The notes under the pieces were generated by a model, which was not told the DNA's origin, searched no databases, and worked only from the letters and a program-made list of their open reading frames with translations. From contig JAFGKU010000097.1 in assembly GCA_016928415.1 (NCBI GenBank), forward strand, positions 3,229 to 67,228: DNA of 64,000 nt, in the 5' to 3' direction. Shown piece by piece: positions 18,616 to 53,858 of this stretch. The position numbers and the translations under genes were made by a program. Within the stretch, counting starts at the first letter, position 1. The number at the start of each line of letters is the position of its first letter. The stretch comes from Spirochaetales bacterium. GTDB lineage: Bacteria > Spirochaetota > Spirochaetia > SZUA-6 > JAFGRV01.

Positions 18616-20139
18616 ATGGCGCAGAATAAGAGGACGGCAATCAATCCCACACGTGAAGAGGATTATCCCGAATGGTACCAGCAGGTTATCAAGGCGGCGG
18701 ACTTAGCAGAAAATTCCCCTGTTCGCGGTTGCATGGTAATTAAACCCTGGGGATACACGCTCTGGGAAAATATCCGGAAGGTACTGGACGGTAAGTTCAA
18801 GGAAACGGGGCACAGGAACGCCTACTTCCCCCTGTTCATTCCAAAAAGCTTTCTGGAAAAGGAAGCGGAGCACGTGGAAGGGTTTGCCAAGGAATGCGCC
18901 GTTGTAACGCATCACCGGCTTGAAGCGGGACCGGAGGGAAACCTGGTGCCCGCGGGCGAACTGGAGGAGCCGTTAGTTGTCAGGCCCACGTCGGAGACGA
19001 TCATCGGCGCCATGTTCGCAAGGTGGGTCCAGTCGTACAGGGACCTTCCCCTTCTCATAAACCAATGGGCCAATGTCGTCCGCTGGGAAATGCGCACGCG
19101 GCTGTTCCTGCGCACGGCGGAATTCCTCTGGCAGGAAGGGCACACGGCGCACGCCACGGCGGAGGAGGCGCAGGAGGAAACGATGCGGATGCTCGATGTG
19201 TATGCCGACTTCGCCGAAAAATACATGGCCATCCCCGTAATAAAGGGGGAGAAAACCGAATCGGAACGTTTTCCCGGAGCGGTTTCCACCTACTGCATAG
19301 AAGCGATGATGCAGGACAGGAAGGCCCTTCAGGCCGGGACAAGCCATTTTCTGGGACAGAATTTTGCCCGGGCATCGGAGATAAAATACTTAAGCGACAA
19401 GGGAAGCGAGGAATTTGCCTGGACCACTTCCTGGGGTGTCTCCACACGCCTGATCGGTGCCATGGTTATGACCCACGGGGATGACGACGGCCTCGTTCTT
19501 CCCCCGAAACTTGCCCCCGCCCATGTCGTGATTCTTCCGGTTCTTCACAAGGAGACGGACAGAAAAGAAGTTTTACAATACTGTGATACATTTATAAAAG
19601 AGCTTAAGCAGGTCCAATACAATGGATCCCCCGTTTCTATTGAATTCGATACAAGGGACCTTCGCGGCGGCGAAAAGACCTGGTCCTGGATCAAGAAAGG
19701 CATACCGGTCTGGGTTGAGGTGGGTATGCGTGATATTGAAAAAGGCGAAGTGTTTGTTGCAAGGCGGGATAAGGAAAAGTGGGGTAAGACAGGCATGAAG
19801 CGCCGGGAGTTCCTGGAAAAGCTTCCTTCCATCCTGGATGATATACAGGAAAACCTTTTAAAAAAGGCATTGGATTTCAGGGTAAAAAATACGGTTAACA
19901 TAGACAGCAAAGAGGAATTTTATTCCTATTTTACACCGCGGAACAAAAACAAGCCGGAAATCCACGGCGGTTTTGCCATGTGCCATTTTGCCGGAGATAC
20001 GGCTGTTGAGGAAGCTATAAAAAAGGATTTGAACGTCACGGTACGCTGCATTCCCCTGGATGCCGAGGCGGAAAAAGGCAAATGTTTCTTTACCGGCAAG
20101 GAAAGCAGCAGGAGGATTGTTTTCGGTAAATCTTATTAA
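18616..20139 (+). CDS. proS: Proline--tRNA ligase, archaeal/eukaryote-like type
   Basis: HVEGFAKE, RPTSET, QWANVVRWE, FLWQEGHT, QAGTSHFLGQNF and TSWGVSTRLIG. No INS editing domain. Confidence 0.97.
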   Translation: MAQNKRTAINPTREEDYPEWYQQVIKAADLAENSPVRGCMVIKPWGYTLWENIRKVLDGKFKETGHRNAYFPLFIPKSFLEKEAEHVEGFAKECAVVTHHRLEAGPEGNLVPAGELEEPLVVRPTSETIIGAMFARWVQSYRDLPLLINQWANVVRWEMRTRLFLRTAEFLWQEGHTAHATAEEAQEETMRMLDVYADFAEKYMAIPVIKGEKTESERFPGAVSTYCIEAMMQDRKALQAGTSHFLGQNFARASEIKYLSDKGSEEFAWTTSWGVSTRLIGAMVMTHGDDDGLVLPPKLAPAHVVILPVLHKETDRKEVLQYCDTFIKELKQVQYNGSPVSIEFDTRDLRGGEKTWSWIKKGIPVWVEVGMRDIEKGEVFVARRDKEKWGKTGMKRREFLEKLPSILDDIQENLLKKALDFRVKNTVNIDSKEEFYSYFTPRNKNKPEIHGGFAMCHFAGDTAVEEAIKKDLNVTVRCIPLDAEAEKGKCFFTGKESSRRIVFGKSY

Positions 20140-20203
20140 ATAATCAATACGTAAAAAGACTTGAAAATCGGGCTGATTTTAACGAATATTGTATCTAGGG
20201 TAA

Positions 20204-22150
20204 ATGGAAATGGACACCCAATCGGCAAAAAAGACGCTTTTACTGGTTTCCGTCGGCAATAAGGCACGTACCATAAAATCCACATTAAAAAAGAATGCTG
20301 CCAATCTTTTCTTGATAAATGAAAGCCGCTCCCTGTCGTCCGCCCTGGAGTTTCTTGAAAAAAATCCGTGTCACATCATACTGCTTGATATGAATCTCAA
20401 GGATTCCCCCGGTCTTGAATCGTTGAAGGTTGTTTATGATAAATATCCGCAATTGCCCGTGATCGTCGTTCTCGATGACAGCGAGCAGATTGATTACATG
20501 GAGCTGATTGTCAACGGCGCACAGGAGTGCCTGCCCATGGCCGAATTCAAGGATGAAAATATTGTCAAGTATATTCATTCCGCCATCAAGCGCAAGGAAA
20601 TGGAAATCAACACAATCAATCTGAAGGATGAGTACGAAGGCATCAAGGTGCTTTTAAGCGAATTGAAAAAAAGAAATGAAGAGCTGACCAAAATGGACCA
20701 GCTGAAAACCAATTTTATTTCAATTGTTTCCCATGAATTGAGAACACCTCTTACTTACATAAAGGAAGGAATATCCCAGGTTTTGGAAGGGCTCCATGGT
20801 GAAATTAATGAAGACCAGAGGGAATTCCTCTCTATCTCCCTGGAGGGAGTGGACCGGCTGAAGGAAATCGTCAATAACCTTCTCGATATTTCCAAAATCG
20901 AGGCAGGCAGGATACAATTACGCAAGTCTTTCATGGATATTAATGAAGTTGTTACCAGGGTAGTCAATGATTTTCAAACCGTGTACCGGAAAAAAGGCAT
21001 TGTTCTGGATTTAGACCTGCCGGGGACACCGCTTAACACATATATTGACCGGGAGAAAATTATTCAGGTTATTACCAATCTTCTGTCCAATGCCTATAAA
21101 TTTACCGAACGCGGAAAAGTGACCGTCAAGGTTGAGGATAAGCCGGGTTATGTATTATTGTCGGTCCGGGATACGGGTGTGGGAATTACCGAAGAAAATT
21201 TAAACAAGGTATTCGATAAATTCGTGCAGGTAGGAAGGACGGACGGGCCGGGTATCAAGGGGACCGGCCTGGGTCTGGGTATTGCCCGCGGCCTGGTGGA
21301 GCAGCACCGGGGAAAAATGTGGGCTGAATCCGAATCGGGCAGGGGCAGTGTATTTTTTTTCAGTATTCCCTATCTCGATTCACTGCAGGTAGTGCAGGAA
21401 GTTATCCGGGATTCGATTATTGATGCTGATTTGCACAAGTCGGAATTTGTCATTCTTTTGGTAAAAATTGAAAATATAGACTATTTGGAGCCGGATGTGT
21501 TTCAATTGGGCACGGATACCGTGCTCAATTCCATAGAAGATATTGTGAGAAATGTCCTGAGACGGGGCACGGACCAGATATACCGGTTGTCGCGGGATGA
21601 ATCGATAATCATTCTTCCGGATACGAAATGGGAAGGGGCCCTTTCACTGCGTCACCGGTTTACGGAAAAAACAAGGGCCTACCTGGGTGAATTGGAGAAT
21701 GATTACAGGATAAAGGTTAATATTGATCTCGGGATGTCCGGATTTCCCAGGGATTCGGATAAATCGGATATCCTCCTGGAAAAGGCAAGGGCGAACCGGA
21801 AAGACCTTTACCTGGGTGATGAACGGCGGCACGCAAGCCGGCTGCCCGTGGATATGATCATAATCGGCGCCAATAATGACGGGGAAAAAAAGGAATTCAA
21901 GACCATCAACATCAGTCTCGGCGGGGTTTGTTTCATTTCGCGGAAATATATCAGCCTTCCGGAACATAACGAAATCGAAATATGTTTACCGGAGGAATAC
22001 GGAAATATCCGTGTAAAAACCGTCATATCATGGACGGAAAAACTGGAGGACCTGGATGAGTACCAGATCGGATTGAAATTCATGGATCTTGGAGATAAAG
22101 AAAGGGACAAACTGTTCAGGTTTATTGAATTGTCAAACAGGAAAGCCTGA
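20204..22150 (+). CDS. Hybrid histidine kinase: receiver-like, HisKA, HATPase, degenerate GGDEF, PilZ
   Basis: SHELRTPL H-box, NLLSNAYKFT, DTGVGI and GTGLGL. GGDEF-like segment RRGTDQIYRLSRDES. PilZ motifs RRHASR and NISLGG. Confidence 0.85.
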   Translation: MEMDTQSAKKTLLLVSVGNKARTIKSTLKKNAANLFLINESRSLSSALEFLEKNPCHIILLDMNLKDSPGLESLKVVYDKYPQLPVIVVLDDSEQIDYMELIVNGAQECLPMAEFKDENIVKYIHSAIKRKEMEINTINLKDEYEGIKVLLSELKKRNEELTKMDQLKTNFISIVSHELRTPLTYIKEGISQVLEGLHGEINEDQREFLSISLEGVDRLKEIVNNLLDISKIEAGRIQLRKSFMDINEVVTRVVNDFQTVYRKKGIVLDLDLPGTPLNTYIDREKIIQVITNLLSNAYKFTERGKVTVKVEDKPGYVLLSVRDTGVGITEENLNKVFDKFVQVGRTDGPGIKGTGLGLGIARGLVEQHRGKMWAESESGRGSVFFFSIPYLDSLQVVQEVIRDSIIDADLHKSEFVILLVKIENIDYLEPDVFQLGTDTVLNSIEDIVRNVLRRGTDQIYRLSRDESIIILPDTKWEGALSLRHRFTEKTRAYLGELENDYRIKVNIDLGMSGFPRDSDKSDILLEKARANRKDLYLGDERRHASRLPVDMIIIGANNDGEKKEFKTINISLGGVCFISRKYISLPEHNEIEICLPEEYGNIRVKTVISWTEKLEDLDEYQIGLKFMDLGDKERDKLFRFIELSNRKA

Positions 22151-22176
22151 TTATAAGTTATATATGGAGGCAATAG

Positions 22177-22551
22177 ATGAATGAAAAGATCTTGATAGTG
22201 GACGACGAACCGCATATAGTCAAGATGGTGGCAGCCCGGCTTAAATCGCTGGGGTATACTGTTGAATCGGCCTTTAACGGTGAAGAAGGATTGGAAAAAA
22301 CCCGCCAATGGAAGCCGGATTTGATCATCCTGGATGTCATGATGCCTAAAATGGACGGTCCGACCATGGCCGCGGAGCTGAAGGAAGACCAGTCCATAAA
22401 CCAAATTCCCATTATATTCCTCACGGCACTTATTAAACGCGAAGAGGATGAAGCACAAAACCATATGGTCGGGGGTAATTATTTTCTAGCTAAACCGTTT
22501 GATCCGTTGGAGCTCATCAATATGGTTAAAAGCGTGTTAAAAAATAATTGA
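22177..22551 (+). CDS. Single-domain response regulator
   Basis: ILIVDD, LIILDVMMP, FLTA and LAKPF all intact. Confidence 0.93.
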   Translation: MNEKILIVDDEPHIVKMVAARLKSLGYTVESAFNGEEGLEKTRQWKPDLIILDVMMPKMDGPTMAAELKEDQSINQIPIIFLTALIKREEDEAQNHMVGGNYFLAKPFDPLELINMVKSVLKNN

Positions 22552-22611
22552 TTATGATTTATAGCGGAATATTGATTTTCCGATAATGTTTCTAGAGGTA
22601 CCTTTAACGTT

Positions 22612-24102
22612 ATGGGTAAAAAATACGTATTTTTTTCGCTTTTTCTGGCAATAACCGCATTTTTATTCCCTTTTGACAAGCAAATTCGTCTCGGGAAAGA
22701 ACAGAAATGGACTTCCCTAATCAGCAGGCAGGGCGTGGTATTGGAGAAAGGAAGGTGGGGTCTCTGGGATATCAGGCTCAAGGACCAGGAAAACGCTGAA
22801 GAAAAGACCACGGATTTATTGCTTCATTTTAACAGCATGAATTTCAGTGATGTTTCAGGGCTTTACAGGCTGGAATCGGGTAATCCCCTCATTTCGCTTA
22901 AAACAAAGGTCCTGGGAAAAGGGAGCGCCGCCTTCAGCGGAAGCGACAATGCATTGACTCTTTATCCCTCACGGCAGAGCCTACTGGGTTCGGAATCGGT
23001 TTTAAGGGATTTTACCATCCAGTTCTGGCTCTATCCCGTTACCTTGTCGGATGGTGAAGAAATTTTAACTTTTCACAGCGCTTTGTTCATCAAGGATGAT
23101 CTGAGGGACCAGTCCATTCATTGTTATATCAAGAGCAGGACCCTGGTTTTCGATTTTGTGAATTTTTTCATGCCCGGCGACAAATCAGCTTTTTCAGTCA
23201 GCCTTAAAGGGCTTGTTCCCCTTATCCCCAGGGTCTGGCGCCATCATCTTATCCGGTTTGACTCCGGAACGGGGCTTCTTGAATATTGTGTGGATGGAAG
23301 GCCTGAAGACATCCGTTATGCAACAAAGTCGGGCAAGGAAGAGACAACGGTTTATCCGGCAATGCCGGGCGCCGAAAAGGTAAGTACGTTAGTTTTGGGA
23401 AGCCGTTATACGGGGATGATGGATGAATTTACAATTTCAAGGGAATTCGTCCGGGCTCCTGTCCTCTCGAAATATTCCACCGAACCGGGAAAAGCCTATT
23501 CCAGGGTATTTGACCTGGTTTACACGTCCACACGTGTGAAGAAAATCGACGCGGTTTTTACTAAACCGGAGAATTCCGAAATTTATTTTTATTATAAAGT
23601 CTCCGATTCATTGGAATCTCACGACGCCGTGAATGCTCCCTGGATTCCGTTCAATCCTGGCCAGGTTTTTGAACATGTGACCAAGGGACGTTATATCCAG
23701 GTCCTGTTCGAACTGTACCCTGACGGCACGGGTAATTTAACCCCTTCACTATCCGATGTCGTGATCACGTACGAAGAGGACCTGCCGCCATCACCGCCCG
23801 CGGATGTCGGCGTTGAAGCGGGCGATGAAACGGTTACCCTTTACTGGAAAAGCGTCAAGGAGCAGGATGTAAAGGGATACCTTGTTTTTTACGGTGAGAG
23901 ACCGGGCAATTATAATGGAAGGGGAAGCCTCCAGGGTGATTCTCCCATCGATGTCGGCATGGTGACTTCCTTTAAACTGGAAAATCTGAAAAACGGCCGG
24001 CTGTATTTCTTTACCGTGGTGGCCTATGATTCCTCGGAGCCGCCCCACCAAAGCCTGTTTTCCAGGGAAGTGTCCATAAGGCCTTCTCCCATAGCAGAAT
24101 AA
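22612..24102 (+). CDS. Exported LamG/ConA-like plus fibronectin type III protein
   Basis: Signal peptide, DFTIQFWLYP..W.H..YTGMMDEF (LamG) and C-terminal VTLYWK..GYLVFYG..YFFTVVAYD (FN3). Confidence 0.75.
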   Translation: MGKKYVFFSLFLAITAFLFPFDKQIRLGKEQKWTSLISRQGVVLEKGRWGLWDIRLKDQENAEEKTTDLLLHFNSMNFSDVSGLYRLESGNPLISLKTKVLGKGSAAFSGSDNALTLYPSRQSLLGSESVLRDFTIQFWLYPVTLSDGEEILTFHSALFIKDDLRDQSIHCYIKSRTLVFDFVNFFMPGDKSAFSVSLKGLVPLIPRVWRHHLIRFDSGTGLLEYCVDGRPEDIRYATKSGKEETTVYPAMPGAEKVSTLVLGSRYTGMMDEFTISREFVRAPVLSKYSTEPGKAYSRVFDLVYTSTRVKKIDAVFTKPENSEIYFYYKVSDSLESHDAVNAPWIPFNPGQVFEHVTKGRYIQVLFELYPDGTGNLTPSLSDVVITYEEDLPPSPPADVGVEAGDETVTLYWKSVKEQDVKGYLVFYGERPGNYNGRGSLQGDSPIDVGMVTSFKLENLKNGRLYFFTVVAYDSSEPPHQSLFSREVSIRPSPIAE

Positions 24103-24106
24103 GATT

Positions 24107-27100
24107 ATGAAGGTAGCGGAGCTTTTAACACGAATACGCCATGCCATAAAAATGAGGGATTTCAGGGCCGCTGAAATCCTTCTTTATAAAATTCTTCATC
24201 ATACCCCGCATTTTGTGACCGCCTATCTGTTGCTGGGAATTGTATACCAGAAGAGGGGACAGTACGGCAAGGCGAAAGAGAGCTTCCGCAAGGTTCTCAG
24301 TTACCAGCCGGAAAACCTGGATGCGCTCAACAACCTGGGGATTGTCTACAAGGAAACGGGCAATTACGAAGAGGCATTGACCGTCTACAACAAGGCCCTG
24401 GAAATAGACGCGGAGAGACCCGATGTTCATTTCAACATAGGCAATGTCTTTAAGGCGGTCTCGGACTATGAAACGGCGATGGAGGAGTACAATACCGCCA
24501 TCGATTTAAAACCGGAATACACGCCGCCGTATAACAACCTTGGTGTTATCCTTGAAGCCATGGACAGGAAGGAAGAGGCGGTCAATGCTTACAAAACAGG
24601 GCTCAGGTATGACAGCAACAATCCCAACCTTCTTCTCAACCTGGGACGGCTCATGGAAAACCGGAGAAAGTACGACAGGGCGAAGACGCAGTACGAAATG
24701 GCACTCAAGGCGAAACCGGGATGGATAGACGCGCTTAGCATGTTAGGCGGTTTGCAGGGGAAAATGGGTGACCATAAAAATGCCATCAACACCCTGAACA
24801 GCGTACTCAAGATCAATCCGCAGAATTTCAATGCCCTTTTCAACATAGGGCTGGAGTACGGCCGGCTGAATGACGTGGATAAGGCGGTGGATTATTATAA
24901 GCGCGCCCTGGAAACCAATCCGGAGTACCGGTCCATCATGCTTTCTTTCGGGTCTTTCCTGGAAAGCGAGGGATATTTCGTAGAATCGCTTAAGGAGCTC
25001 GAAGAGCTGATGCGCCGCGACCCTGACAATCCCGAGGCGCGGTTTGCGTATGTCAATGTATTGATCTCCATGGGGCGCTATGTGAGGGCCTTGAAAAGCA
25101 TCCGGGGTATGCTTCGTTTTGACCCCTCCAATGAAAAGGCCCTCCAGCTTTTAATGACCATATACCTCATGCTTAAAAAATACATCAAGGCGGATAAAAT
25201 TTTTGCAACATTGGGTAAAAAAAATGCCGGCAACTACCTTTACGACTTTAAGATTCAGGAAATTATCACTGACAAGGAAAGCCTTAAAACGCATTTTGAA
25301 GATATCAAAAGACTGATAAGTGTCTTTGACGAGGATATTAATTTCATCCTTTTCTGGGGTGAAATTTATTTTAACCATAAATTATACGATCAAGCCCTTG
25401 AATTGTTCCTCCTTGGCTGTGAGATAAAACCCAGGTTCGTAAAATCGCATCATTTTATTGCCCGTATTCTCATCCAGCAAGGAAAAATCAGGGAAGCGAT
25501 GGACATGTTGACAAAGATCATCAATATCCAGGGTACGCGTATTACCAAGCAGGATATGCAGGACCTCATGGGCACCCTGGACCTTTATGAAGGTGTCCTG
25601 GAGAAGTATGACAGGGAAAAAATCGATTCCAAGGGAAAATACTCCATAAAAAATTATTTTGACGAACACGGGGACATGAAGACCGTCATCATCCCCGATA
25701 AATCAATAGAAGAAGATGCATTGGAACCCATCATAGACATCGGCGAACCGGAACCGCTCCTTCAAGTGAATGAGGAGGAGGAACTGCTGCGAATAGATGA
25801 AATGGCAGAGGAGATCGAGGAAGACATCGTGGAAATAAACGACCAGGAGCCTCCCCCCATGATGAACCTTCTCGAAAACCAGGAATTGTATGATGAATCG
25901 ATGATGCTGAAAATTCTCCAGGCTCAGCAGGAATTACTCAATGATATATCCCATAAGTTGAAGAAAGTGGAAAAAGACAGCGGTAATAAACAGGAGTCGT
26001 TACTTGAAGAAATGGCAACCAAAGAGGGCCTCCTTGATTCTATCGATAAAACGAAAGCAATTATTTCCGACGATAATATATCAGGAAAGGCTGAATCGTT
26101 TACCGGCAGCCAGACCGGAATGATGGGTGGCAGCCAGACCGGAATGATGGGTGGCAGTCAGACCGGAATGGGAACGGGCAAGACGGGAATAGCAGGCCAG
26201 AATACCGGGCAGGCGGGAATGATGGCGGGAAACAAGGGCCTGGAGGAAATGGCATCAAACCTGCTAAAGGACGGTACGGACAGAAAAAATTCCGGGGCGG
26301 ACAAGAATCAACCCGCCATGATGGATATTGACAAGGATTCGCTCATGTCCAAAATCATGATGACCCAGCAGGAAATCCTGCTCAATATATCTCAAAAGAT
26401 AAATTCGCTTAAGGACAATTTCCCGCCTGTTGACAGGACGCCGGCCGTTTCCAACAGAATACCCGGCATGCTGGAATCCATTACGCCGGAGCTGTTGAAC
26501 GGCCTGCAGAAGGGCATCAACAAACTGGCCGATTCGATGAAGAATCAATACAAGATCATCCCCATCCCTCTCGGGACGGATGTATCCTTTACACCTGACG
26601 GGAAGGCGGTTGTAAAGCCCCCGGACAGCAACATGGCCAAGATGGTTGAGGAGAAGCTTCAGAAGGCAAGCAATTCGCTGGAATCGCTGGAAGCCAAGGT
26701 GTTGAGGCAGGAAATGCGCGATTATATCAGGAAAATCCGGGACAAGCTTGAAGATACAAAAACCTTTGATGAAAAAACGGGAAAAGCGGTATTTAAACCG
26801 GCAAAGAAGACCGCCGGGAAGGAAGAAAAAGGCCTGCCGGATGATATCCTCAAGGCAAAGCTTGAAGAAGGCAAGGAAAAGCTGGAACACATCCGTGATA
26901 AAATATACAGCGCCATCAACAAAAACAGGATCGAGCACGGGGAAGAACCCCTCCACGTCAAGGGTCAGGGAACCAAAGCGGGGGGAACGGCTTTCGAGGA
27001 GATGGCGGAAGACATTGACGCGGCAGATACCGCTGCTGAACCGGAAAAGACGGCCGAGGTATCAGGAACAAAAACCAGGATACCTTTGAGAAAAAGGTTT

Positions 27101-27211
27101 ACCCTTTCGAACATACTCAACCGGATTATCGACTTTATCCCCGGATCAAAAATAAAACAGAGAATCAGGCGGACGTTCAAACGGCTTTTAAATATCGATT
27201 CCAATAAATAA
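24107..27211 (+). CDS. Large TPR-repeat protein with low-complexity C-terminal half
   Basis: Many canonical TPRs (LNNLGIVY, YNNLGVIL, FNIGLEY) followed by acidic, Gly/Met-rich and coiled-coil segments. Confidence 0.85.
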   Translation: MKVAELLTRIRHAIKMRDFRAAEILLYKILHHTPHFVTAYLLLGIVYQKRGQYGKAKESFRKVLSYQPENLDALNNLGIVYKETGNYEEALTVYNKALEIDAERPDVHFNIGNVFKAVSDYETAMEEYNTAIDLKPEYTPPYNNLGVILEAMDRKEEAVNAYKTGLRYDSNNPNLLLNLGRLMENRRKYDRAKTQYEMALKAKPGWIDALSMLGGLQGKMGDHKNAINTLNSVLKINPQNFNALFNIGLEYGRLNDVDKAVDYYKRALETNPEYRSIMLSFGSFLESEGYFVESLKELEELMRRDPDNPEARFAYVNVLISMGRYVRALKSIRGMLRFDPSNEKALQLLMTIYLMLKKYIKADKIFATLGKKNAGNYLYDFKIQEIITDKESLKTHFEDIKRLISVFDEDINFILFWGEIYFNHKLYDQALELFLLGCEIKPRFVKSHHFIARILIQQGKIREAMDMLTKIINIQGTRITKQDMQDLMGTLDLYEGVLEKYDREKIDSKGKYSIKNYFDEHGDMKTVIIPDKSIEEDALEPIIDIGEPEPLLQVNEEEELLRIDEMAEEIEEDIVEINDQEPPPMMNLLENQELYDESMMLKILQAQQELLNDISHKLKKVEKDSGNKQESLLEEMATKEGLLDSIDKTKAIISDDNISGKAESFTGSQTGMMGGSQTGMMGGSQTGMGTGKTGIAGQNTGQAGMMAGNKGLEEMASNLLKDGTDRKNSGADKNQPAMMDIDKDSLMSKIMMTQQEILLNISQKINSLKDNFPPVDRTPAVSNRIPGMLESITPELLNGLQKGINKLADSMKNQYKIIPIPLGTDVSFTPDGKAVVKPPDSNMAKMVEEKLQKASNSLESLEAKVLRQEMRDYIRKIRDKLEDTKTFDEKTGKAVFKPAKKTAGKEEKGLPDDILKAKLEEGKEKLEHIRDKIYSAINKNRIEHGEEPLHVKGQGTKAGGTAFEEMAEDIDAADTAAEPEKTAEVSGTKTRIPLRKRFTLSNILNRIIDFIPGSKIKQRIRRTFKRLLNIDSNK
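26105..26171 (+). repeat. In-frame 24-bp tandem repeat (about 2.8 copies)
   Basis: GGCAGCCAGACCGGAATGATGGGT twice plus GGCAGTCAGACCGGAATGG, encoding GSQTGMMG repeats. Confidence 0.9.
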
Positions 27212-42804: not shown

Positions 42805-44013
42805 GTGCTTATAAGAAAATTTGTATTGATTCTACTATATTTATCCATCTTTTGCAAATCTTTTTTAATTGGTGAAAGCTTCCTGGAGCCGGAAATCATG
42901 GGAAAAGCGGCCTGTTCCATAGACGTGGCCACGGGCGAGATCATCTACGCCCGGAGTATGGACAGGATTTTATACCCGGCCAGCATGACAAAACTTATAA
43001 CGGCTGTTCTCCTGGCGGAAAAAGATGAACCGGGAGATATTTTGAACTACAGCCGGGCGGCAAAAAACGTTTACCCCTACAAGCTGGATTTCCCCGTTGG
43101 AGAGCAGGTATCTGCGATGGAGGCCATGTACGGGCTTCTGCTTTTTTCCGGTAATGACATAGCTTACATGATTGCCGAAAACCTGGGCGGTGACATTCCG
43201 GGTTTTGCCCGGATGATGAACGGAAAGGTGAGGGAATGGAACCTGAAGCACACCCGTTTCGTTACCCCCTCGGGCCTTCATGACCCCGGCCACTACAGCT
43301 CCGCCTACGACATGACGATGATCCTGCGCCATGCCGCACGGAATCCCTGGATAGCCTCGGTCATGGAACAGACCAGCCACATCCTCCTCACCGAATCGGG
43401 ACATAAGTATCCCATTACTAACAGGAACAAACTCGTCGGGGTTGACGGCTGCATCGGCGGCAAGACCGGCTGGACACCGGAAGCGGGCCGCTGCCTGGCC
43501 GCCCTCTTTGAACGGAACGGACGCCGGATAGCGGCCGTGGTCATGGATTCGGTGTATGACGCCAAAGACACTGTCGTTTTCAAGGATATGGAGAACCTCA
43601 TTAATTATTCTTATAGTGCCATACGGAAGCAGCTTGTACCTGCGGAAAGAGTCATCAAGCGGGTGCGGGTCAAATACAAGGTAATACCGTTACTCGGCCC
43701 GGAGCGGGAAGCGGTAGTGCCCCTGTACCTGTCCGAACCTGTCATGCTGTATATGACCAGGGATGGCCGGGTGGACCTGGATTTCCGTCCGGATGTATCC
43801 GACCCATGGTCCCTTTCCCGTGAAAAACCGGCCGGTGATCTGCGTGTCATCATGCGGGAGTACGCGCGTTCCTACGCCCTTTACCCCGCCCTCGACGCCG
43901 GTATGCTGTTTAAGGAAAATATTGTCTTCTACATCCTGTTCGGCGGTACCACGTTGTTGATAATATTACTGGCCGTGTTGCTGACTGTGCTGATACGGAG
44001 GAGAAGGGGGTAA
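42805..44013 (+). CDS. D-alanyl-D-alanine carboxypeptidase (peptidase S11) with C-terminal membrane anchor
   Basis: SMTK, SGN and KTG motifs, plus C-terminal TM. Probable GTG start at 42805. Confidence 0.9.
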   Translation: MLIRKFVLILLYLSIFCKSFLIGESFLEPEIMGKAACSIDVATGEIIYARSMDRILYPASMTKLITAVLLAEKDEPGDILNYSRAAKNVYPYKLDFPVGEQVSAMEAMYGLLLFSGNDIAYMIAENLGGDIPGFARMMNGKVREWNLKHTRFVTPSGLHDPGHYSSAYDMTMILRHAARNPWIASVMEQTSHILLTESGHKYPITNRNKLVGVDGCIGGKTGWTPEAGRCLAALFERNGRRIAAVVMDSVYDAKDTVVFKDMENLINYSYSAIRKQLVPAERVIKRVRVKYKVIPLLGPEREAVVPLYLSEPVMLYMTRDGRVDLDFRPDVSDPWSLSREKPAGDLRVIMREYARSYALYPALDAGMLFKENIVFYILFGGTTLLIILLAVLLTVLIRRRRG

Positions 44014-44134
44014 TCACCTTTTCAAGGAGAATCTTCTTGGTGTAATTCTGGATGTAAGTTGAAGACGACTTGATTTCAGCAGCTTTAGGCTGATCGCCTT
44101 TTTTATAGAAGACATCCACTTCGTTTTTATTCAA
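44014..44134 (-). pseudogene. C-terminal remnant of a DUF4143-type nuclease domain
   Basis: NKNEVDVFYKKGDQPKAAEIKSSST matches the EVD..E.K motif of the neighbouring ATPase-nuclease genes. Confidence 0.45.
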
Positions 44135-44210
44135 AACTTAAGTACAACTTAAGATTTGCATAAAAATTAAAATTTATTAAGTCTTTTTCAGTCTGATATG
44201 CCATTACCTT

Positions 44211-45446
44211 TTATGGCAGTACTTCCAGGAACCTGTCTGCTGAGATCACGCACTCGTTTTCAGAAACTTTACGAAAAACCCCTGATGTATGAAGGACTTG
44301 TATTACCGGTATTCCCAAAGAAATTCCGAAGTTCCTGACGGGAGTCGGGATTTTTATATCGGATAACTTGGCTTCAATAATAAGCACAGGTTTTTTGTTC
44401 AGAATCAGAAGAAAATCCGCTTCATTGCCGTCGTAATTACGGATATAGCGCAATTCCGCGTCCCCCAGTCCATTGTCGTTCAGGATTTGACAAAACCGGG
44501 AAAGCATCACACCGATAAAATTTTCAAACCTCTGGCCGGGATTCTCCACATAAATCCAATTGATGAAATAGGCCTTTTTTTCCTTTCTGACGGCCCTGTT
44601 GATCCGTTTGTTCCAGGGATACAGGGACCAGATTAACCATAGCCTTTCCATTTGCGCTAAATGATTGACGACAGTCGGGCTGCTGGTCCCGGCATCTTCA
44701 GCCAATGACTTGACAGACAGGGGATTCCCAACACGGTTGAAAAGAAACATCATTATTCTTTCCGCCGTATCTATTTCATGAATCCGGGTCAGTTCACGTA
44801 AATCTTCGGTCAGGATCAATGAAATGTATTCTTTCTTCCACTTGTTTAAAAACCTGTCTGAATCCCTGGTTAATGGTTCGGGAAAACCTCCGAAATGATA
44901 GAGTTGTTCATAATCACCTGTTGAAAGGGTAATTTGACCCGTCAATCGTGATAATAAATTTTTCCAGGGGTCCTTCCAATCGGATTCGTTTAAAAGCCAT
45001 GCATCCGTAATTTTTTTTCCAAGCAATTCGCCAAGTGAAACCGGAAGCATGTTAAAATGCGTATATCTTCCAACAAGGGAATCACCCGATTTTCTGAAAA
45101 GATTGAGCCGTGCGCTCCCGGTAATAAGAAATCTGCATGCGGGTTCCACGGTATCATACAGGCCTTTTAGAATATCTTTCCATTTTTTTCTTTTATGGAT
45201 CTCATCCATGACCACCAGAAAATCGCTGGTTTTTTTATCGTTGAGAAAAAAAAGAGCATTTTTAATATACTGGCTTCGAATATCGGGATTATCCCAATTG
45301 TAATATCCCCCGGGATTTTTTTTCAGCACTTCCTTTGCATAATATGTCTTGCCGATCTGTCTCGGTCCGGAAAGGAAAATCATTTTGTTGCCGGATAGTT
45401 CCTCAGACCAGATATACTGGTCAATTTGACGTTTTAATAAAGACAT
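44211..45446 (-). CDS. AAA_14-type ATPase with C-terminal DUF4143 (PD-(D/E)xK-like) domain
   Basis: GPRQIGKT Walker A, MDEIH Walker B, ITGSA, GGFPE, FEN and EADF..IEAK. Likely start at 45446. Confidence 0.88.
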   Translation of the reverse strand: MSLLKRQIDQYIWSEELSGNKMIFLSGPRQIGKTYYAKEVLKKNPGGYYNWDNPDIRSQYIKNALFFLNDKKTSDFLVVMDEIHKRKKWKDILKGLYDTVEPACRFLITGSARLNLFRKSGDSLVGRYTHFNMLPVSLGELLGKKITDAWLLNESDWKDPWKNLLSRLTGQITLSTGDYEQLYHFGGFPEPLTRDSDRFLNKWKKEYISLILTEDLRELTRIHEIDTAERIMMFLFNRVGNPLSVKSLAEDAGTSSPTVVNHLAQMERLWLIWSLYPWNKRINRAVRKEKKAYFINWIYVENPGQRFENFIGVMLSRFCQILNDNGLGDAELRYIRNYDGNEADFLLILNKKPVLIIEAKLSDIKIPTPVRNFGISLGIPVIQVLHTSGVFRKVSENECVISADRFLEVLP

Positions 45447-45485
45447 ATTACTAATATATCTCAAAACAGATATCGTGTCAATTAA

Positions 45486-45525
45486 ATATGACTTTAAATT
45501 ACACGCGTGTAAATTAAAGTCATAT
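45486..45525. promoter_or_regulatory. 40-bp near-perfect palindrome, candidate operator
   Basis: ATATGACTTTAAATTACACGCGTGTAAATTAAAGTCATAT, with one mismatched pair. Confidence 0.7.
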
Positions 45526-45550
45526 ATATTATCCACGATTTGAATTCGCC

Positions 45551-45579
45551 TTGACAATTTTAACAAATGTAACTATTAT
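45551..45579 (+). promoter_or_regulatory. Sigma70-like promoter for TA module 1
   Basis: TTGACA-N17-TATTAT. Confidence 0.6.
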
Positions 45580-45592
45580 GTAACCATAATGA

Positions 45593-45892
45593 TTGTATTA
45601 TGAGGTGCAAATGTTCAATATAACGATTCGTAATATTCCTAACGATATAATTGAAAAGATTAAAATTCTTTCCGCCATGGAACGAAGAAGTTTAAACAGT
45701 GAAATTCTCATATTGCTGGAGAGGGGTCTGCTGTATGAAACAAAAAACAGGACCGTTAAATCCGTCACCTCATCCACTCAAATAAGGATCTGGGAAAAAT
45801 TATCCGGTGAGTGGAAAGATGAAAGGAATACCGATGAAATTATCCGGGACATTTATTCAGACCGGAGCCTGGGCAGGGATGTCAATTTATGA
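45593..45892 (+). CDS. FitA/Arc-like ribbon-helix-helix antitoxin
   Basis: ITIRNIP..RRSLNSEI. ATGA overlap with the PIN gene. Confidence 0.82.
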   Translation: MYYEVQMFNITIRNIPNDIIEKIKILSAMERRSLNSEILILLERGLLYETKNRTVKSVTSSTQIRIWEKLSGEWKDERNTDEIIRDIYSDRSLGRDVNL

Positions 45893-46281
45893 TCCTTATT
45901 GATACGGATGTGTGCATTGAAATTCTGCGCGGCAATAGACAAATAATGAATCGAAGAAGGGAATACGGGGGAAATGTGGCCGTATCCTTTATGACGGCAG
46001 GCGAACTGTTTTATGGCGCCGGGAAATCGGGTCACAGTGCCGTTAACCGCCATCTGGTCACTGAATTCCTTCTTGTCACGGAAATCATTGAATCCGATAT
46101 CGACATCATGAGAAGGTTCGGGATTATCAAGGCCGAATTAAAGACGAGGAACGAGATGCTTCCCGACGCGGACATCATCATAGGCGCCACGGCCCTGGAA
46201 AAATGTGAAAAATTGATTACGGGAAATACAGGGCATTTCAACCGTATTCCCGGTTTAAAAGTAGAGAACTGGATCAGGTGA
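45889..46281 (+). CDS. vapC: VapC-type PIN-domain toxin
   Basis: LIDTDV, GEL, DADIIIGATA and TGNTGHF. Confidence 0.88.
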   Translation: MILIDTDVCIEILRGNRQIMNRRREYGGNVAVSFMTAGELFYGAGKSGHSAVNRHLVTEFLLVTEIIESDIDIMRRFGIIKAELKTRNEMLPDADIIIGATALEKCEKLITGNTGHFNRIPGLKVENWIR

Positions 46282-46298
46282 CGGGTTTAAACCCATTT

Positions 46299-47693
46299 TT
46301 ATTTGTCCCCGATTAATATATCACCTTCAAATAAAAATACATTATCCGGTTTTGCCAATTCCATCATTTGCTTTGTAAACCCGGATTTGCTGAAAAGACA
46401 AAAATATTCCGATCGCCTTTCCTTCCCCCATTCCACATGTTCTGCCTTTTCTCTCAATTTTCGATAGATATCCGTTCCCATGGGCTTTTTTGACCATTTA
46501 GCCTCCCCGAATATTATGGCATTTGTTTTTCTGTTGATTCCCACCACATCAATTTCTTCATTCCTGTCCCACCAGCCGCCGACTTCAGCAAATTCCGGAA
46601 AGGAGGGATTGTATGAATTGAAGCTCTTGATTGTTTCGCGGGCTATTTTTTCATACGCGGTCCCGTTCAATACGGGCAGGTTTTCTTTCAACATACCCAG
46701 AACATCATTTATCCGGCCCTGCTCAAGCAATGAACGGTTCCTGAATACAAACCTGAACCAGAAAGCAAAAAAATTATCACTAAAGACATAGAGACCCTTC
46801 CTGCTTTTTTCGGGTATTTTTTCCGTAACGGGTATTTTTTTTTCAGTTATATGCAGACTGTCCAGGATTGAAAGATAGCGTGACACGGTACCTTTTTCCA
46901 AACCGCTCTCATTTATAATTTCCGATAACTTATGTTTTCCCAGGGAAATGGCCTCAAGAATAACAAAATAGTTTCTGGGCTCCTTCAATTCTTCACGAAG
47001 CAGGAAATCCACTTCGGCATATAGGGGCTCTCCTTTTGTGAAGATACTGTTTTTAACGGAGTTAATGTAATTTTTACCGGCAAACTGGTTTAAATAAAGC
47101 GGAGTCCCCCCCACGGAACTGTATATGGAAACAGTTTCCTCGAGAGATTTTTCAGGAAACATGGTTTTTACGGATTTAAAAGAGAAAGGCTTAACCAGTA
47201 ATTGTCCCGTCCGCCTTCCATACAATGGGGCTTTATGATGGAGAACGGTTTTTTCCATCATTGAAATACTGGAACCAAGCAGTATAAGAAAAACGGATGA
47301 TGATTTAAGATGAAGATCCCAAATTTTTTGAAACGCCGTTGGAATGGAGGGATCTGTTTCCGCCAAATAAGGAAATTCATCTATAATGACAAGCAGCTTT
47401 TCATTTCTGGCTGAAATATATTTAAAAGCCTGTTCCCAGTCCCGAAAGCCGCTTTCCGGTATAAATTCATCCTGATAGTATGCGGCTATGCTTTCCGAAA
47501 ATTTCAGTACCTGCTTTTGGGGAGTGATCATTTCGCTGAGATAATAAATATGGGGTTTATCCATGCAAAATTTCAATGAAAGCTCGGTTTTTCCCACCCT
47601 TCTTTTTCCGTAAAGGATAATAAGCTGGGCTCCCTTTTGATTCCACTTTTTGTCGAGAAAATCAAGTTCTTCTTCCCTGTTGACAAATTTCAT
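46299..47693 (-). CDS. Archaeal-type ATPase with C-terminal DUF234 nuclease-like domain
   Basis: FVNREEEL, YGKRRVGKT, IIDEFPYL, GRRTG, GGTP, FSDNFFAFWF and GGWWDRNEEIDVV..GEAKW. Confidence 0.88.
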   Translation of the reverse strand: MKFVNREEELDFLDKKWNQKGAQLIILYGKRRVGKTELSLKFCMDKPHIYYLSEMITPQKQVLKFSESIAAYYQDEFIPESGFRDWEQAFKYISARNEKLLVIIDEFPYLAETDPSIPTAFQKIWDLHLKSSSVFLILLGSSISMMEKTVLHHKAPLYGRRTGQLLVKPFSFKSVKTMFPEKSLEETVSIYSSVGGTPLYLNQFAGKNYINSVKNSIFTKGEPLYAEVDFLLREELKEPRNYFVILEAISLGKHKLSEIINESGLEKGTVSRYLSILDSLHITEKKIPVTEKIPEKSRKGLYVFSDNFFAFWFRFVFRNRSLLEQGRINDVLGMLKENLPVLNGTAYEKIARETIKSFNSYNPSFPEFAEVGGWWDRNEEIDVVGINRKTNAIIFGEAKWSKKPMGTDIYRKLREKAEHVEWGKERRSEYFCLFSKSGFTKQMMELAKPDNVFLFEGDILIGDK

Positions 47694-47703
47694 TATTTTC
47701 TCC

Positions 47704-47741
47704 TTAGTTTAATCAAGATTAGTCTAATCTATTTTAGACTA
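47704..47741. promoter_or_regulatory. Overlapping palindromes upstream of the DUF234 ATPase
   Basis: AGATTAG-T-CTAATCT (47716-47730) and TAGTCTAA-N6-TTAGACTA (47720-47741). Confidence 0.55.
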
Positions 47742-47781
47742 TTTATCAATCCCGGGAATATGGGAATATATTAATTTTGAC

Positions 47782-48984: not shown

Positions 48985-48992
48985 ATCTTGAA

Positions 48993-49046
48993 TTTTACCC
49001 TATAGGGTAAAAAAATGGCAAGAATTTTACCCTCATGGGTAAAATT
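48993..49046. promoter_or_regulatory. Tandem palindromes upstream of the AAA_14 pseudogene
   Basis: TTTTACCCTATAGGGTAAAA (48993-49012) and AATTTTACCC-TCAT-GGGTAAAATT (49023-49046). Confidence 0.72.
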
Positions 49047-49250
49047 TCGGAGTAAATTTAATGGAAATAGGATTGAATTTACCATATTTCTCTGGATTGC
49101 TGTTAAAAATCAGCTTTTCTTTCATTTTTCAGGTTTTTTTGTTCAAATACGCTTCCCTGCCTAAATCCCAAAAAAAGTGTCACTTATGTGGATTTTTTTT
49201 GTTTAAGTTATATAGTTAGAAGAAAGGAAATTATGATTATGGAGAGAAAT

Positions 49251-50225: not shown

Positions 50226-50291
50226 AGATTGGTTTAACAATTTTTTTCATCAGGTAAATAGATGTTATTTTTTTGGCTTAAGGAGGTTTTA

Positions 50292-50813: not shown

Positions 50814-50835
50814 TAATTAATAGCATTAAATTTTT

Positions 50836-51765: not shown

Positions 51766-51774
51766 AAGCCCTCC

Positions 51775-53839: not shown

Positions 53840-53858
53840 ACGGGAGACATCCATTGAT

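What the first reader, a model, noticed from the sequence alone, without database searches (positions are those of the whole stretch)
20204..22551. Histidine kinase with two candidate c-di-GMP-binding modules and a pseudo-receiver
Seen: the N-terminal REC keeps the phospho-Asp (LLDMN) but lacks the acidic pocket (LLVSV) and the conserved Lys (ECLPM). The kinase core is intact. The GGDEF domain is catalytically degenerate (SRDES) but keeps the RxxD I-site (RGTD). The C-terminal PilZ keeps RxxxR and NxSxxG. An intact single REC gene follows. Known: I-sites and PilZ motifs bind c-di-GMP, and c-di-GMP-controlled kinases exist (CckA). Inference: a soluble kinase that converts c-di-GMP level into phosphorylation of the adjacent regulator through two sites.
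Basis: partly seen in the sequence, partly recalled or inferred. Interest (0 to 1): 0.65.

Follow-up and report, generated by a model that had tools for sequence, protein, structure and literature searches.

The report
Histidine kinase with built-in c-di-GMP sensors

Summary
**Observation:** confirmed in every detail. The 648-aa ORF (20204-22150) reads pseudo-receiver, HisKA, HATPase_c, dead GGDEF, PilZ. A canonical 124-aa receiver gene follows after 26 nt.

**What the comparisons add**
- The PilZ binding residues are present in all 48 PilZ-bearing kinases collected.
- The I-site triad (R454, D457, R485) is among the most conserved columns in PilZ-less sister kinases. It survives in only 7 of the 48 PilZ-bearing ones, this protein included.
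- A stand-alone receiver follows the kinase in 7 of 9 loci examined.
- In a genome of the same family the tail is missing and the kinase is fused directly to this receiver (56% identity).
- The genome has 59 GGDEF and 25 PilZ matches, so c-di-GMP signalling is extensive.
- Among 401 genomes of the phylum, only this one has the kinase-linked tail.

**Reading:** a c-di-GMP-gated two-component pair, with PilZ as the main sensor and the I-site as a plausible second site.

**Not shown:** ligand binding, or any effect on kinase activity. In SgmT, c-di-GMP binding changed localisation, not catalysis.

**Verdict:** a new variant of known c-di-GMP/kinase cross-talk, of moderate interest. The same kinase family has been noted several times in Omnitrophota by earlier notes of this scan.

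The parts
20204..22150 (+). Gene for the 648-aa soluble histidine kinase (pseudo-REC, HisKA, HATPase_c, dead GGDEF, PilZ)
   Evidence: ORF; Pfam; AF2 model with pLDDT 88.6; no TM segment.
20231..20551 (+). N-terminal pseudo-receiver, residues 10-116. The phospho-Asp D62 is kept. The acidic pair, the Thr and the Lys are lost.
   Evidence: Pfam Response_reg 34.3 bits. Alignment to CheY and to the downstream REC. REC fold in the AF2 model. No Arg in residues 84-129, so no ShkA-type c-di-GMP site.
20552..20902 (+). Long signalling helix plus the DHp/HisKA domain, residues 117-233, with phospho-acceptor H177 in the H-E-x-x-T motif
   Evidence: HisKA 56.6 bits. Helices 117-194 and 203-233. H177 nearly invariant.
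20927..21373 (+). Catalytic ATP-binding (CA) domain, residues 242-390, with N, G1, F and G2 boxes
   Evidence: HATPase_c 97.2 bits. Invariant N296, D323, G325, G327, G353, G355, G357.
21380..21793 (+). Catalytically dead GGDEF-like domain, residues 393-530. SRDES (463-467) replaces GG(D/E)EF, K421 replaces the metal Asp and E429 replaces the base-binding Asn.
   Evidence: Pfam GGDEF 36.5 bits, third weakest of the genome's 59 matches. Alignments. Foldseek matches to TM1788, YfiN and DosC GGDEF domains.
21563..21658 (+). Candidate I-site triad: R454 and D457 (RxxD) and R485 (31 residues after R454, the spacing of R359 to R390 in PleD)
   Evidence: Register shown. Definition of the PleD I-site in PMC7288161. 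Conservation 26/34, 31/34 and 31/34 in PilZ-less sister kinases; the full triad survives in 7 of 48 PilZ-bearing kinases.
21815..22144 (+). PilZ module, residues 538-647: flexible RRxxxR linker (RRHASR 541-546), beta-barrel with NxSxxG (NISLGG 569-574) and a C-terminal helix (631-647)
   Evidence: Pfam PilZ 40.6 bits. R542, R546, D/N569, S571 and G574 present in 48 of 48 PilZ-bearing kinases. Low pLDDT at 538-544, barrel and helix elsewhere. Foldseek matches to Alg44, YcgR, MrkH and MapZ PilZ domains.
22166..22170 (+). GGAGG ribosome-binding site of the receiver gene, 6 nt before its ATG and inside the 26-nt gap after the kinase stop codon
   Evidence: Sequence read.
22177..22551 (+). Gene for the stand-alone canonical receiver (124 aa), the inferred phospho-acceptor of the kinase
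   Evidence: Response_reg 96.3 bits. All five signature residues present. 56% identical to the REC fused to the closest kinase relative. 55% identical to the REC that follows P0002.

Best explanation
The two genes form a c-di-GMP-gated two-component pair.

**Parts**
- The kinase is a soluble homodimeric HisKA-type enzyme with no conventional sensor domain.
- Its N-terminus is a receiver that cannot be phosphorylated. It more likely acts as a docking or dimerisation module.
- Its tail is a GGDEF domain that can no longer make c-di-GMP, followed by a PilZ domain.

**Proposed mechanism**
- c-di-GMP binds the RRxxxR linker and the NxSxxG strand of PilZ.
- As in other PilZ proteins, this would fold the linker and clamp PilZ against its neighbour, here the dead GGDEF domain that hangs on the ATP-binding domain.
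- That would change how freely the ATP-binding domain reaches H177, or how the free receiver reaches the kinase. The balance between kinase, phosphotransfer and phosphatase activity towards the 124-aa receiver would then follow c-di-GMP level.
- The retained I-site (R454, D457, R485) probably gives a second contact for c-di-GMP. It could be a separate site or part of one composite site.

**Shown:** the architecture, the motifs, the folds, the family-wide conservation and the kinase-receiver linkage.

**Inferred:** ligand binding, the direction of the effect and the output of the receiver.
For: - **Domains and motifs:**
- **Folds:** confident GGDEF-like and PilZ folds, with the RRxxxR linker predicted as flexible, as expected for an unliganded PilZ protein.
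- **PilZ conservation:** the binding residues are present in 48 of 48 PilZ-bearing kinases from several lineages, although the adjoining GGDEF domain has lost every catalytic residue.
- **I-site conservation:** in 34 sister kinases with a dead GGDEF and no PilZ, the I-site columns rank 2nd, 3rd, 10th and 12th of about 120. The triad is complete in this protein.
- **Receiver partner:** a stand-alone receiver follows the kinase in 7 of 9 loci. In same-family genome G004 the kinase (P0005) is fused in frame to a receiver 56% identical to this one, and the junction keeps the receiver's Met. P0005 falls in the same clade as the window's kinase, SH-aLRT 98.
- **Co-transcription:** a 26-nt gap with a GGAGG site.
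- **Phosphatase potential:** the H-E-x-x-T motif is compatible with phosphatase activity. This reading comes from my own knowledge of HisKA kinases; the motif is seen.
- **c-di-GMP network:** 59 GGDEF and 25 PilZ matches in the genome.
- **Precedents:** c-di-GMP acts on kinases in HapZ-SagS (a PilZ adaptor on a kinase's REC; bioRxiv 10.1101/2020.02.11.943704), ShkA (PMC6969517), CckA (PMC12564702) and SgmT (PMC3509222).
Against: - No binding or activity data exist for any member of this family.
- 41 of 48 PilZ-bearing relatives lack the I-site triad, so it is dispensable for the family. In this protein it may be an inherited remnant.
- Two of nine loci have no receiver directly after the kinase.
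- The receiver has no output domain, and the neighbouring genes (prolyl-tRNA synthetase, a LamG/fn3 protein, a TPR protein, glycoside hydrolases) give no hint of the controlled process.
Confidence: 0.5

Rival explanations
1. c-di-GMP binds the tail but controls where the kinase sits or which partner it recruits, not its catalytic rates. This is the SgmT model: binding sequesters the kinase in clusters or docks it on a target machine.
For: - SgmT is the only characterised kinase with a c-di-GMP-binding dead GGDEF domain. c-di-GMP left its autophosphorylation and transfer unchanged, but was needed for localisation in clusters (PMC3509222).
- PilZ C-terminal helices are known protein-interaction surfaces (bioRxiv 10.1101/814665). 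This PilZ has such a helix at residues 631-647.
- Relatives P0002 and P0264 lie beside pseudopilin and PilB/PilC-type genes, which could be docking targets.
Against: - In the window the pair is not next to any such machine. The genome's only T2SS-type cluster is on another contig and carries no kinase or receiver among the genes scanned.
- The tight, conserved pairing with a free receiver, and the natural kinase-receiver fusion, suggest that phosphoryl flow is the regulated quantity.
Confidence: 0.2
2. Only PilZ is a working sensor. The RxxD/R485 triad is a remnant inherited from an I-site-bearing ancestor, or it has a structural role, and binds nothing in this protein.
For: - 41 of 48 PilZ-bearing kinases have lost the triad while keeping every PilZ residue. 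This suggests that PilZ replaced the I-site.
- The review cited says that RxxD and the R390-type basic residue are conserved in GGDEF members (PMC7288161), so they could persist through inheritance.
Against: - In PilZ-less sister kinases the triad ranks among the most conserved columns, although every catalytic residue has been lost. That argues for function in this clade.
- The triad is complete in the window's protein and in its closest PilZ-bearing relatives P0002, P0121, P0125 and P0264, which are only 34-45% identical to each other in the comparisons made.
Confidence: 0.2
3. Neither module binds c-di-GMP. The tail is a decayed fusion relic that serves only as a spacer or dimerisation element, and the kinase responds to an unknown signal through the pseudo-receiver.
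For: - The GGDEF score is low (36.5 bits) and the catalytic site is destroyed.
- No experiment exists for the family.
- The G004 relative functions, presumably, without the tail.
Against: - Complete conservation of the five PilZ ligand-binding residues across 48 diverged proteins is hard to explain without ligand binding.
- The PilZ Pfam score (40.6 bits) is well above the cut-off of 22.5.
- The fold matches ligand-bound PilZ structures.
Confidence: 0.07

Closest known systems
HapZ (PA2799)-SagS of Pseudomonas aeruginosa
   Same: A PilZ domain that binds c-di-GMP acts on a histidine-kinase pathway and controls phosphoryl transfer by contacting a REC domain (as summarised in bioRxiv 10.1101/2020.02.11.943704 and PMC12564702).
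   Different: HapZ is a separate single-domain protein that acts in trans on a membrane hybrid kinase. Here PilZ is fused in cis to a soluble kinase, behind a dead GGDEF domain, and the receiver is a separate gene.
SgmT of Myxococcus xanthus (PMC3509222)
   Same: A histidine kinase with a C-terminal, catalytically inactive GGDEF domain whose RxxD I-site binds c-di-GMP.
   Different: SgmT reads GAF-kinase-REC-GGDEF, has no PilZ and partners a DNA-binding regulator. c-di-GMP changed its localisation, not its activity. In this protein the GGDEF signature is far more decayed and a PilZ domain follows.
ShkA of Caulobacter crescentus (PMC6969517)
   Same: A soluble kinase without a classical sensor domain, switched on by c-di-GMP. 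It contains a pseudo-receiver with the same decay pattern: the acidic pair is replaced and the phospho-Asp is kept.
   Different: In ShkA the pseudo-receiver lies after the kinase core and is itself the c-di-GMP site (R324, Y338, R344). Here the pseudo-receiver is N-terminal and has no Arg on the equivalent face. The candidate sites are GGDEF and PilZ.
CckA of Caulobacter crescentus
   Same: A bifunctional kinase/phosphatase whose balance is set by c-di-GMP (PMC12564702, PMC7288161).
   Different: c-di-GMP binds the CA domain of CckA directly. CckA has no dedicated receptor domain, is membrane-bound and is a hybrid kinase.
HisKA-HATPase-dead GGDEF-PilZ kinases of Omnitrophota and Verrucomicrobiota (uncharacterised; P0004-P0014, P0266-P0294)
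   Same: The same kinase core clade, the same dead GGDEF-PilZ tail with all PilZ residues, and usually a stand-alone receiver gene directly downstream.
   Different: Those proteins carry PAS (and REC-PAS-PAS) sensor modules and have lost the I-site triad. This one comes from a Spirochaetota genome, has only a pseudo-receiver in front and keeps the complete triad.
PelD and PopA type degenerate GGDEF receptors and the PleD I-site
   Same: RxxD five residues before the GG(D/E)EF position, plus a second Arg 31 residues after the first, the spacing of R359, D362 and R390 in PleD (PMC7288161).
   Different: These are not kinases. Whether this domain has an equivalent of the fourth residue (R313 of a neighbouring domain in PleD) could not be established. 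The residue at the same spacing is A408.

Membership tests
HisKA-type histidine kinase | H-box with phospho-acceptor His in a DHp helix hairpin | tested here: met
   SHELRTP with H177; HisKA 56.6 bits against a cut-off of 26.9. Helices 117-194 and 203-233. H177 nearly invariant.
HisKA-type histidine kinase | CA domain with N, G1, F and G2 boxes | tested here: met
   HATPase_c 97.2 bits. N296, D323/G325/G327, F337/F340 and G353/G355/G357 are invariant in the family alignment.
HisKA-type histidine kinase | ATP-dependent autophosphorylation and transfer to a receiver | not testable with these tools
   Needs purified protein.
PilZ c-di-GMP receptor domain | RxxxR motif in the linker before the barrel | tested here: met
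   R541-R542-H-A-S-R546. R542 and R546 are present in 48 of 48 PilZ-bearing kinases.
PilZ c-di-GMP receptor domain | (D/N)xSxxG motif | tested here: met
   N569-I-S571-L-G-G574. D/N, S and G are present in 48 of 48.
PilZ c-di-GMP receptor domain | Six-stranded beta-barrel with a C-terminal helix | tested here: met
   Six strands between residues 552 and 627 and a helix at 631-647 in the AF2 model. Foldseek matches Alg44, YcgR, MrkH and MapZ PilZ domains with target-normalised TM scores of 0.58-0.75 for the isolated PilZ-domain entries.
PilZ c-di-GMP receptor domain | Binding of c-di-GMP | not testable with these tools
   Needs DRaCALA, ITC or MST.
Active diguanylate cyclase (GGDEF) | GG(D/E)EF active-site motif, metal-binding Asp and base-binding Asn | tested here: not met
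   SRDES at 463-467, K421 for the metal Asp and E429 for the Asn. Pfam 36.5 bits, where most of the genome's other GGDEF domains score 100-176.
Degenerate GGDEF I-site receptor (PelD, PopA, SgmT type) | GGDEF fold with an inactive active site | tested here: met
   Foldseek matches to TM1788, YfiN and DosC. Catalytic residues are lost.
Degenerate GGDEF I-site receptor (PelD, PopA, SgmT type) | RxxD five residues upstream of the GG(D/E)EF position | tested here: met
   R454-G-T-D457, then QIYRL, then SRDES. The register is confirmed against TM1788 and active GGDEF-PilZ proteins.
Degenerate GGDEF I-site receptor (PelD, PopA, SgmT type) | Second basic residue equivalent to PleD R390 | tested here: met
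   R485 lies 31 residues after R454, the same spacing as R359 to R390 in PleD (PMC7288161). It aligns with an Arg of TM1788 and is conserved in 31 of 34 PilZ-less sister kinases.
Degenerate GGDEF I-site receptor (PelD, PopA, SgmT type) | Binding of c-di-GMP that is lost in an RxxD mutant | not testable with these tools
   Needs biochemistry.
Canonical phospho-accepting receiver (the N-terminal domain) | Acidic pair, phospho-Asp, Thr/Ser and Lys | tested here: not met
   V16/S17 replace the acidic pair, L89 replaces the Thr and there is no Lys at the K109 position. Only D62 is kept.
ShkA-type c-di-GMP-binding pseudo-receiver | Arg/Tyr/Arg cluster (R324, Y338, R344) on the alpha4-beta5-alpha5 face | tested here: not met
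   There is no Arg between residues 84 and 129. The residues required are those given in PMC6969517.
Canonical receiver (the downstream 124-aa gene) | Acidic pair, phospho-Asp, Thr and Lys over a full-length REC profile | tested here: met
   D9, D10, D53, T83 and K106. Response_reg 96.3 bits over profile positions 1-111.
CckA-type c-di-GMP site on the CA domain | Ligand contacts on the CA domain (Y514 and neighbours in CckA) | not tested
   I made no residue-level comparison with CckA. The best NCBIfam matches are to other kinases, all below their family cut-offs.

The most novel reading that the evidence does not exclude
This protein may be a transitional, dual-input form in which c-di-GMP sensing by kinases is passing from a GGDEF I-site to a fused PilZ domain.

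- The I-site triad and the PilZ RRxxxR linker, which are adjacent in sequence, would hold one intercalated c-di-GMP dimer between them, or two ligands cooperatively.
- That would clamp the tail onto the ATP-binding domain.
- The enzyme would then flip between kinase and phosphatase towards a free receiver with a steep c-di-GMP threshold.

If so, it would be the first cis PilZ-gated histidine kinase. It would also be a further mechanism for c-di-GMP control of two-component signalling, beside those of CckA, ShkA, SgmT and HapZ-SagS.
Probability: 0.2. Interest if true: 0.7.

Novelty: new variant of a known kind. Interest (0 to 1): 0.5.

Why it matters
c-di-GMP and two-component phosphorylation are the two largest bacterial signalling systems. 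Only a handful of direct links between them are understood, and each uses a different mechanism: CckA, ShkA, SgmT and HapZ-SagS.

**Why this pair suits experiment**
- The kinase carries a dedicated PilZ receptor in the same polypeptide, with no other sensor domain, so it is a minimal candidate for a c-di-GMP-to-phosphate converter.
- It is soluble and small, and its partner is a single-domain receiver.
- A genome of the same family provides a natural control that lacks the tail.

**Wider points**
- The conserved I-site in PilZ-less sister kinases suggests that a much larger set of kinases with an unrecognisable dead GGDEF tail are c-di-GMP receptors. Pfam often misses that domain.
- No health or safety aspect is apparent. 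The organism is an uncultured environmental spirochaete.

Tried and rejected
- **Active cyclase:** rejected. GG(D/E)EF, the metal Asp and the base-binding Asn are all replaced.
- **ShkA-type c-di-GMP site on the N-terminal pseudo-receiver:** rejected. There is no Arg on the alpha4-beta5-alpha5 face.
- **Scans of the named species genomes with the tail:**
  - The alignment had no stretch conserved enough to search with.
  - The single-protein scan found no relative, so I obtained no organism names that way.
- **Word-indexed search with the tail region alone:** returned only the protein itself. A profile of full-length short-class members worked.
- **Link to a pilus or T2SS machine in this genome:** not supported.
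  - The only T2SSE gene lies on another contig, in a prepilin peptidase-secretin-GspE-GspF-GspG cluster with no kinase or receiver among the genes scanned.
  - The cluster's proteins show no significant similarity to the pseudopilin-cluster proteins upstream of P0002.
- **Geometry of the two sites in the models:** not possible. Coordinates are not exposed, and pTM values of 0.56-0.65 give little confidence in the domain packing.
- **Tree:** the careful search did not finish in time. I used only the quick tree with SH-aLRT support.
- **The about 390-aa GGDEF-PilZ proteins:** I first took them for REC fusions. Pfam finds no REC, only an unannotated N-terminus of about 110 aa.
- **Literature:** seven full-text searches found no paper that describes a histidine kinase-PilZ fusion. 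Absence from this library is not proof of absence.
Full report
**1. What is there**

The window holds a 648-aa ORF at 20204..22150 (+). After a 26-nt gap with a GGAGG site, a 124-aa ORF follows at 22177..22551.

Pfam places five domains in the large protein, all above their curated cut-offs:
- Response_reg (34.3 bits, partial)
- HisKA (56.6 bits)
- HATPase_c (97.2 bits)
- GGDEF (36.5 bits)
- PilZ (40.6 bits)

The small protein is a full-length receiver (96.3 bits). No NCBIfam equivalog reaches its family cut-off, so this is not a named kinase. The protein has no membrane segment. A promoter-like site lies just upstream (20161-20190) and a weak terminator-like hairpin just after the receiver (22565-22582). 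The pair may therefore be its own two-gene unit, but these are only consensus matches.

**2.

- **N-terminal REC.** Aligned with CheY and the downstream receiver, it has V16/S17 for the acidic pair, L89 for the Thr and no Lys at the K109 position. It keeps D62.
- **Kinase boxes.** All are present, and invariant or nearly so among relatives.
- **GGDEF domain.** SRDES occupies the GG(D/E)EF position. K421 replaces the metal Asp and E429 the base-binding Asn. RGTD lies exactly five residues upstream, in the same register as in T. maritima TM1788 and in active GGDEF-PilZ proteins.
- **PilZ.** It has RRHASR (541-546) and NISLGG (569-574).
- **Downstream receiver.** All five signature residues are present.

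**3. Structure**

The AlphaFold2 model of the whole protein is confident (mean pLDDT 88.6, pTM 0.65). It shows, in order:
- a REC fold
- a 78-residue helix that runs into the DHp hairpin
- the CA domain
- a compact alpha/beta domain
- a low-confidence stretch at 538-544, which is the RRxxxR linker
- a beta-barrel
- a final helix

A separate model of the tail (pLDDT 80.0) matches GGDEF domains (TM1788, YfiN, DosC) with its first half and c-di-GMP-bound PilZ domains (Alg44, YcgR, MrkH, MapZ) with its second. No solved structure contains the tandem. Coordinates are not exposed, so I could not examine the contact between the domains.

**4. Organism and c-di-GMP background**

- The window lies in a 5.1-Mb, 85%-complete metagenome-assembled genome.
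- The closest kinase relative, P0005, is identical to a protein of same-family genome G004. NCBI labels it 'Spirochaetales bacterium'.
- The genome has 59 GGDEF matches and 25 PilZ matches, so c-di-GMP signalling is extensive. The kinase's GGDEF is the third weakest of the 59.

**5. The family**

An exhaustive search with the tail alone found the collinear GGDEF-PilZ tandem in two settings:
- Proteins of about 390 aa, with an unannotated N-terminus and a fully active GGDEF.
- Histidine kinases in which the GGDEF has lost all its catalytic residues.

Two searches of the 5.8-billion-protein set yielded 48 PilZ-bearing kinases. Those with a source name are labelled Omnitrophota or Verrucomicrobiae, and most carry PAS modules. 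Pfam often misses their dead GGDEF domain.

Within 401 genomes sampled from the window's phylum, only the window's genome has the kinase-linked tail. About a dozen others have GGDEF-PilZ proteins of about 400 aa. The exact architecture of the window's protein (pseudo-REC, no PAS, dual motifs) appears once in the database, as the protein itself.

**6. Are the two motif sets maintained?**

PilZ residues R542, R546, D/N569, S571 and G574 are present in 48 of 48 kinases.

The I-site gives a more interesting picture. Counts are by tail class (for the first row, for the second):

| Kinases | n | R454 | D457 | R485 | Complete triad |
|---|---|---|---|---|---|
| Dead GGDEF, no PilZ | 34 | 26 | 31 | 31 | not counted |
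| PilZ-bearing | 48 | - | - | - | 7 |

- In the PilZ-less kinases these columns rank 10th, 3rd and 2nd of about 120, although no catalytic residue survives.
- R485 corresponds to PleD R390 (31 residues after R359), which is part of the I-site (PMC7288161).
- The seven PilZ-bearing kinases with the complete triad are the window's protein, P0002, P0121, P0122, P0125, P0264 and one more counted by the same rule.

The simplest reading is that this kinase clade used the I-site of a dead GGDEF as a c-di-GMP receptor. A PilZ domain was then added, and the I-site decayed in most PilZ-bearing lines. The window's protein belongs to the minority that keeps both. The direction of this history is inferred, not shown.

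**7. The receiver is the partner**

- A stand-alone receiver of 124-131 aa follows the kinase in the window and in the loci of P0002, P0264, P0009, P0006, P0004 and P0007. It does not in those of P0013 and P0121. That is 7 of 9 loci.
- The receiver after P0002 is 55% identical to the window's.
- P0005 of G004 reads pseudo-REC-HisKA-HATPase-REC. Its C-terminal REC is 56% identical to the window's receiver. The junction keeps the first helix of the GGDEF-like domain and then reads M-AKKILVVDDEP, which looks like the start of the receiver gene.
- In a quick tree of kinase cores, P0005 sits in one clade (SH-aLRT 98) with the window's kinase and the PilZ-bearing P0002 and P0121.

This fits a deletion that removed the dead GGDEF-PilZ module and fused the kinase to its partner. 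It works as a Rosetta-stone argument for the pairing, and it supplies a natural variant without the tail.

**8. Mechanism**

The steps of the argument, each marked for what it rests on:
- No PAS, GAF or membrane sensor is present. The N-terminal REC cannot bind the metal needed for phosphorylation, which follows from established receiver chemistry given the residues. c-di-GMP is therefore the only predictable input.
- In two-domain PilZ proteins, the RxxxR linker wraps the ligand and closes PilZ onto the preceding domain. This is my own knowledge of YcgR, PP4397, MrkH and PlzA; the structures are listed.
- Here the preceding domain is the dead GGDEF, attached directly to the CA domain. Closure could restrain the CA movement needed for autophosphorylation, or create or hide a docking surface for the receiver.
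- The H-E-x-x-T motif allows phosphatase activity (my own knowledge of HisKA kinases), so a kinase/phosphatase switch is possible.
- The I-site may add a second ligand contact.

All steps after 'motifs are conserved' are inference. The main caution is SgmT, where c-di-GMP bound the I-site without changing autophosphorylation or transfer and instead controlled localisation (PMC3509222).

**9. Output**

- The receiver has no effector domain.
- The neighbouring genes are uninformative: prolyl-tRNA synthetase, a signal-peptide LamG/fn3 protein, a 1034-aa TPR protein, and GH5 and GH16 enzymes.
- In relatives the pair lies beside type IV filament or T2SS genes. P0002 has pseudopilins, T2SSK and a PilM-like gene upstream. 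P0264 is followed by REC, REC, an MshEN-PilB-like ATPase and a PilC-like gene. Earlier notes of this scan say the same for Omnitrophota.
- In this genome the only such cluster is on another contig and is not detectably related to that of P0002. The link is a lead, not a finding, for this organism.

**10. Comparison with known systems**

- It works most like HapZ-SagS (PilZ acting on a kinase pathway) and like SgmT (an I-site on a kinase). Its pseudo-receiver decay pattern resembles that of ShkA.
- It is a member of none of these. HapZ acts in trans. SgmT lacks PilZ and has a different domain order. The ShkA ligand site is absent. The CckA site lies on the CA domain.
[quoted passage not shown] Seven full-text searches found no description of a kinase-PilZ fusion.

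**11. Verdict**

- It is a new variant of a known kind (direct c-di-GMP control of a histidine kinase) in an uncharacterised family. Within that family it is an unusual member: from Spirochaetota, sensor-less and dual-motif.
- Interest is moderate (0.5). The system is well suited to experiment, and the hidden I-site kinase clade is worth a survey. Cross-talk of this general kind is already established by several other mechanisms, and nothing here is shown biochemically.

Noticed in passing
Relatives P0025-P0112 (no window coordinates); the window equivalents are residues 452-457 and 485 of the ORF at 20204-22150: A sizeable clade of histidine kinases ends in a tail of about 125 aa. The tail is a GGDEF domain with no catalytic residue left, but with a conserved LRRxxD motif and an Arg 31 residues after the RxxD Arg (26/34, 31/34 and 31/34). 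These look like unrecognised I-site c-di-GMP receptor kinases. Pfam frequently does not call the domain.
   Followed up: partly
L009:8234-9793 (-), genome G004, same family as the window: A kinase-receiver fusion (pseudo-REC-HisKA-HATPase-REC). It appears to derive from a kinase-dead GGDEF-PilZ plus receiver pair by in-frame deletion of the tail. The junction keeps the first GGDEF helix and the receiver's Met. The contig ends inside the gene, so the N-terminus is incomplete.
   Followed up: partly
L028:282-5500 (contig of P0264): An apparent operon: kinase-dead GGDEF-PilZ, then two single-domain receivers (the first overlaps the kinase stop codon by 4 nt), then an MshEN-T2SSE (PilB-like) ATPase and a T2SSF (PilC-like) protein. 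This kinase keeps the full I-site triad, like the window's.
   Followed up: no
P0132-P0263: Proteins of about 390 aa with an N-terminal region of about 110 aa that has no Pfam match, then a catalytically intact GGDEF (often with RxxD), then a canonical PilZ. This is a cyclase with a built-in product receptor, and the likely evolutionary source of the tandem.
   Followed up: partly
window 52631-57353: A solute-binding protein gene (52631-53839) is followed directly by an active 504-aa diguanylate cyclase (53859-55373; GGDEF 164 bits). A convergent PAS-PAS hybrid histidine kinase lies at 55389-57353 (-). This is another c-di-GMP/two-component neighbourhood in the same window.
   Followed up: no
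window 22612-27211: Directly downstream on the same strand lie a 496-aa protein with a hydrophobic N-terminus, a LamG-like region and an fn3 domain, and 4 nt later a 1034-aa TPR protein with a GGSQTGMM-type repeat in its low-complexity middle. Their functions are unknown, and I found no conservation of these genes with the kinase in relatives.
   Followed up: partly
window 44001-52000: G+C drops to 0.39-0.41, against 0.45-0.52 elsewhere. The stretch holds two ATPase genes of the AAA_14/DUF4143 and ATPase_2/DUF234 types (44211-47693, - strand). It is possibly an acquired island.
   Followed up: no
window 18616-20139: The prolyl-tRNA synthetase just upstream carries the ProRS-C_1 C-terminal domain. 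From my own knowledge that marks the archaeal/eukaryote-like type. It is on the same strand as the kinase, 64 nt away.
   Followed up: no
G000 contig C79 (L029:2878-12787, - strand): The genome's single T2SS-type cluster: prepilin peptidase, secretin, GspE-like ATPase with a weak MshEN match, GspF, GspG, and five ORFs without Pfam matches.
   Followed up: partly
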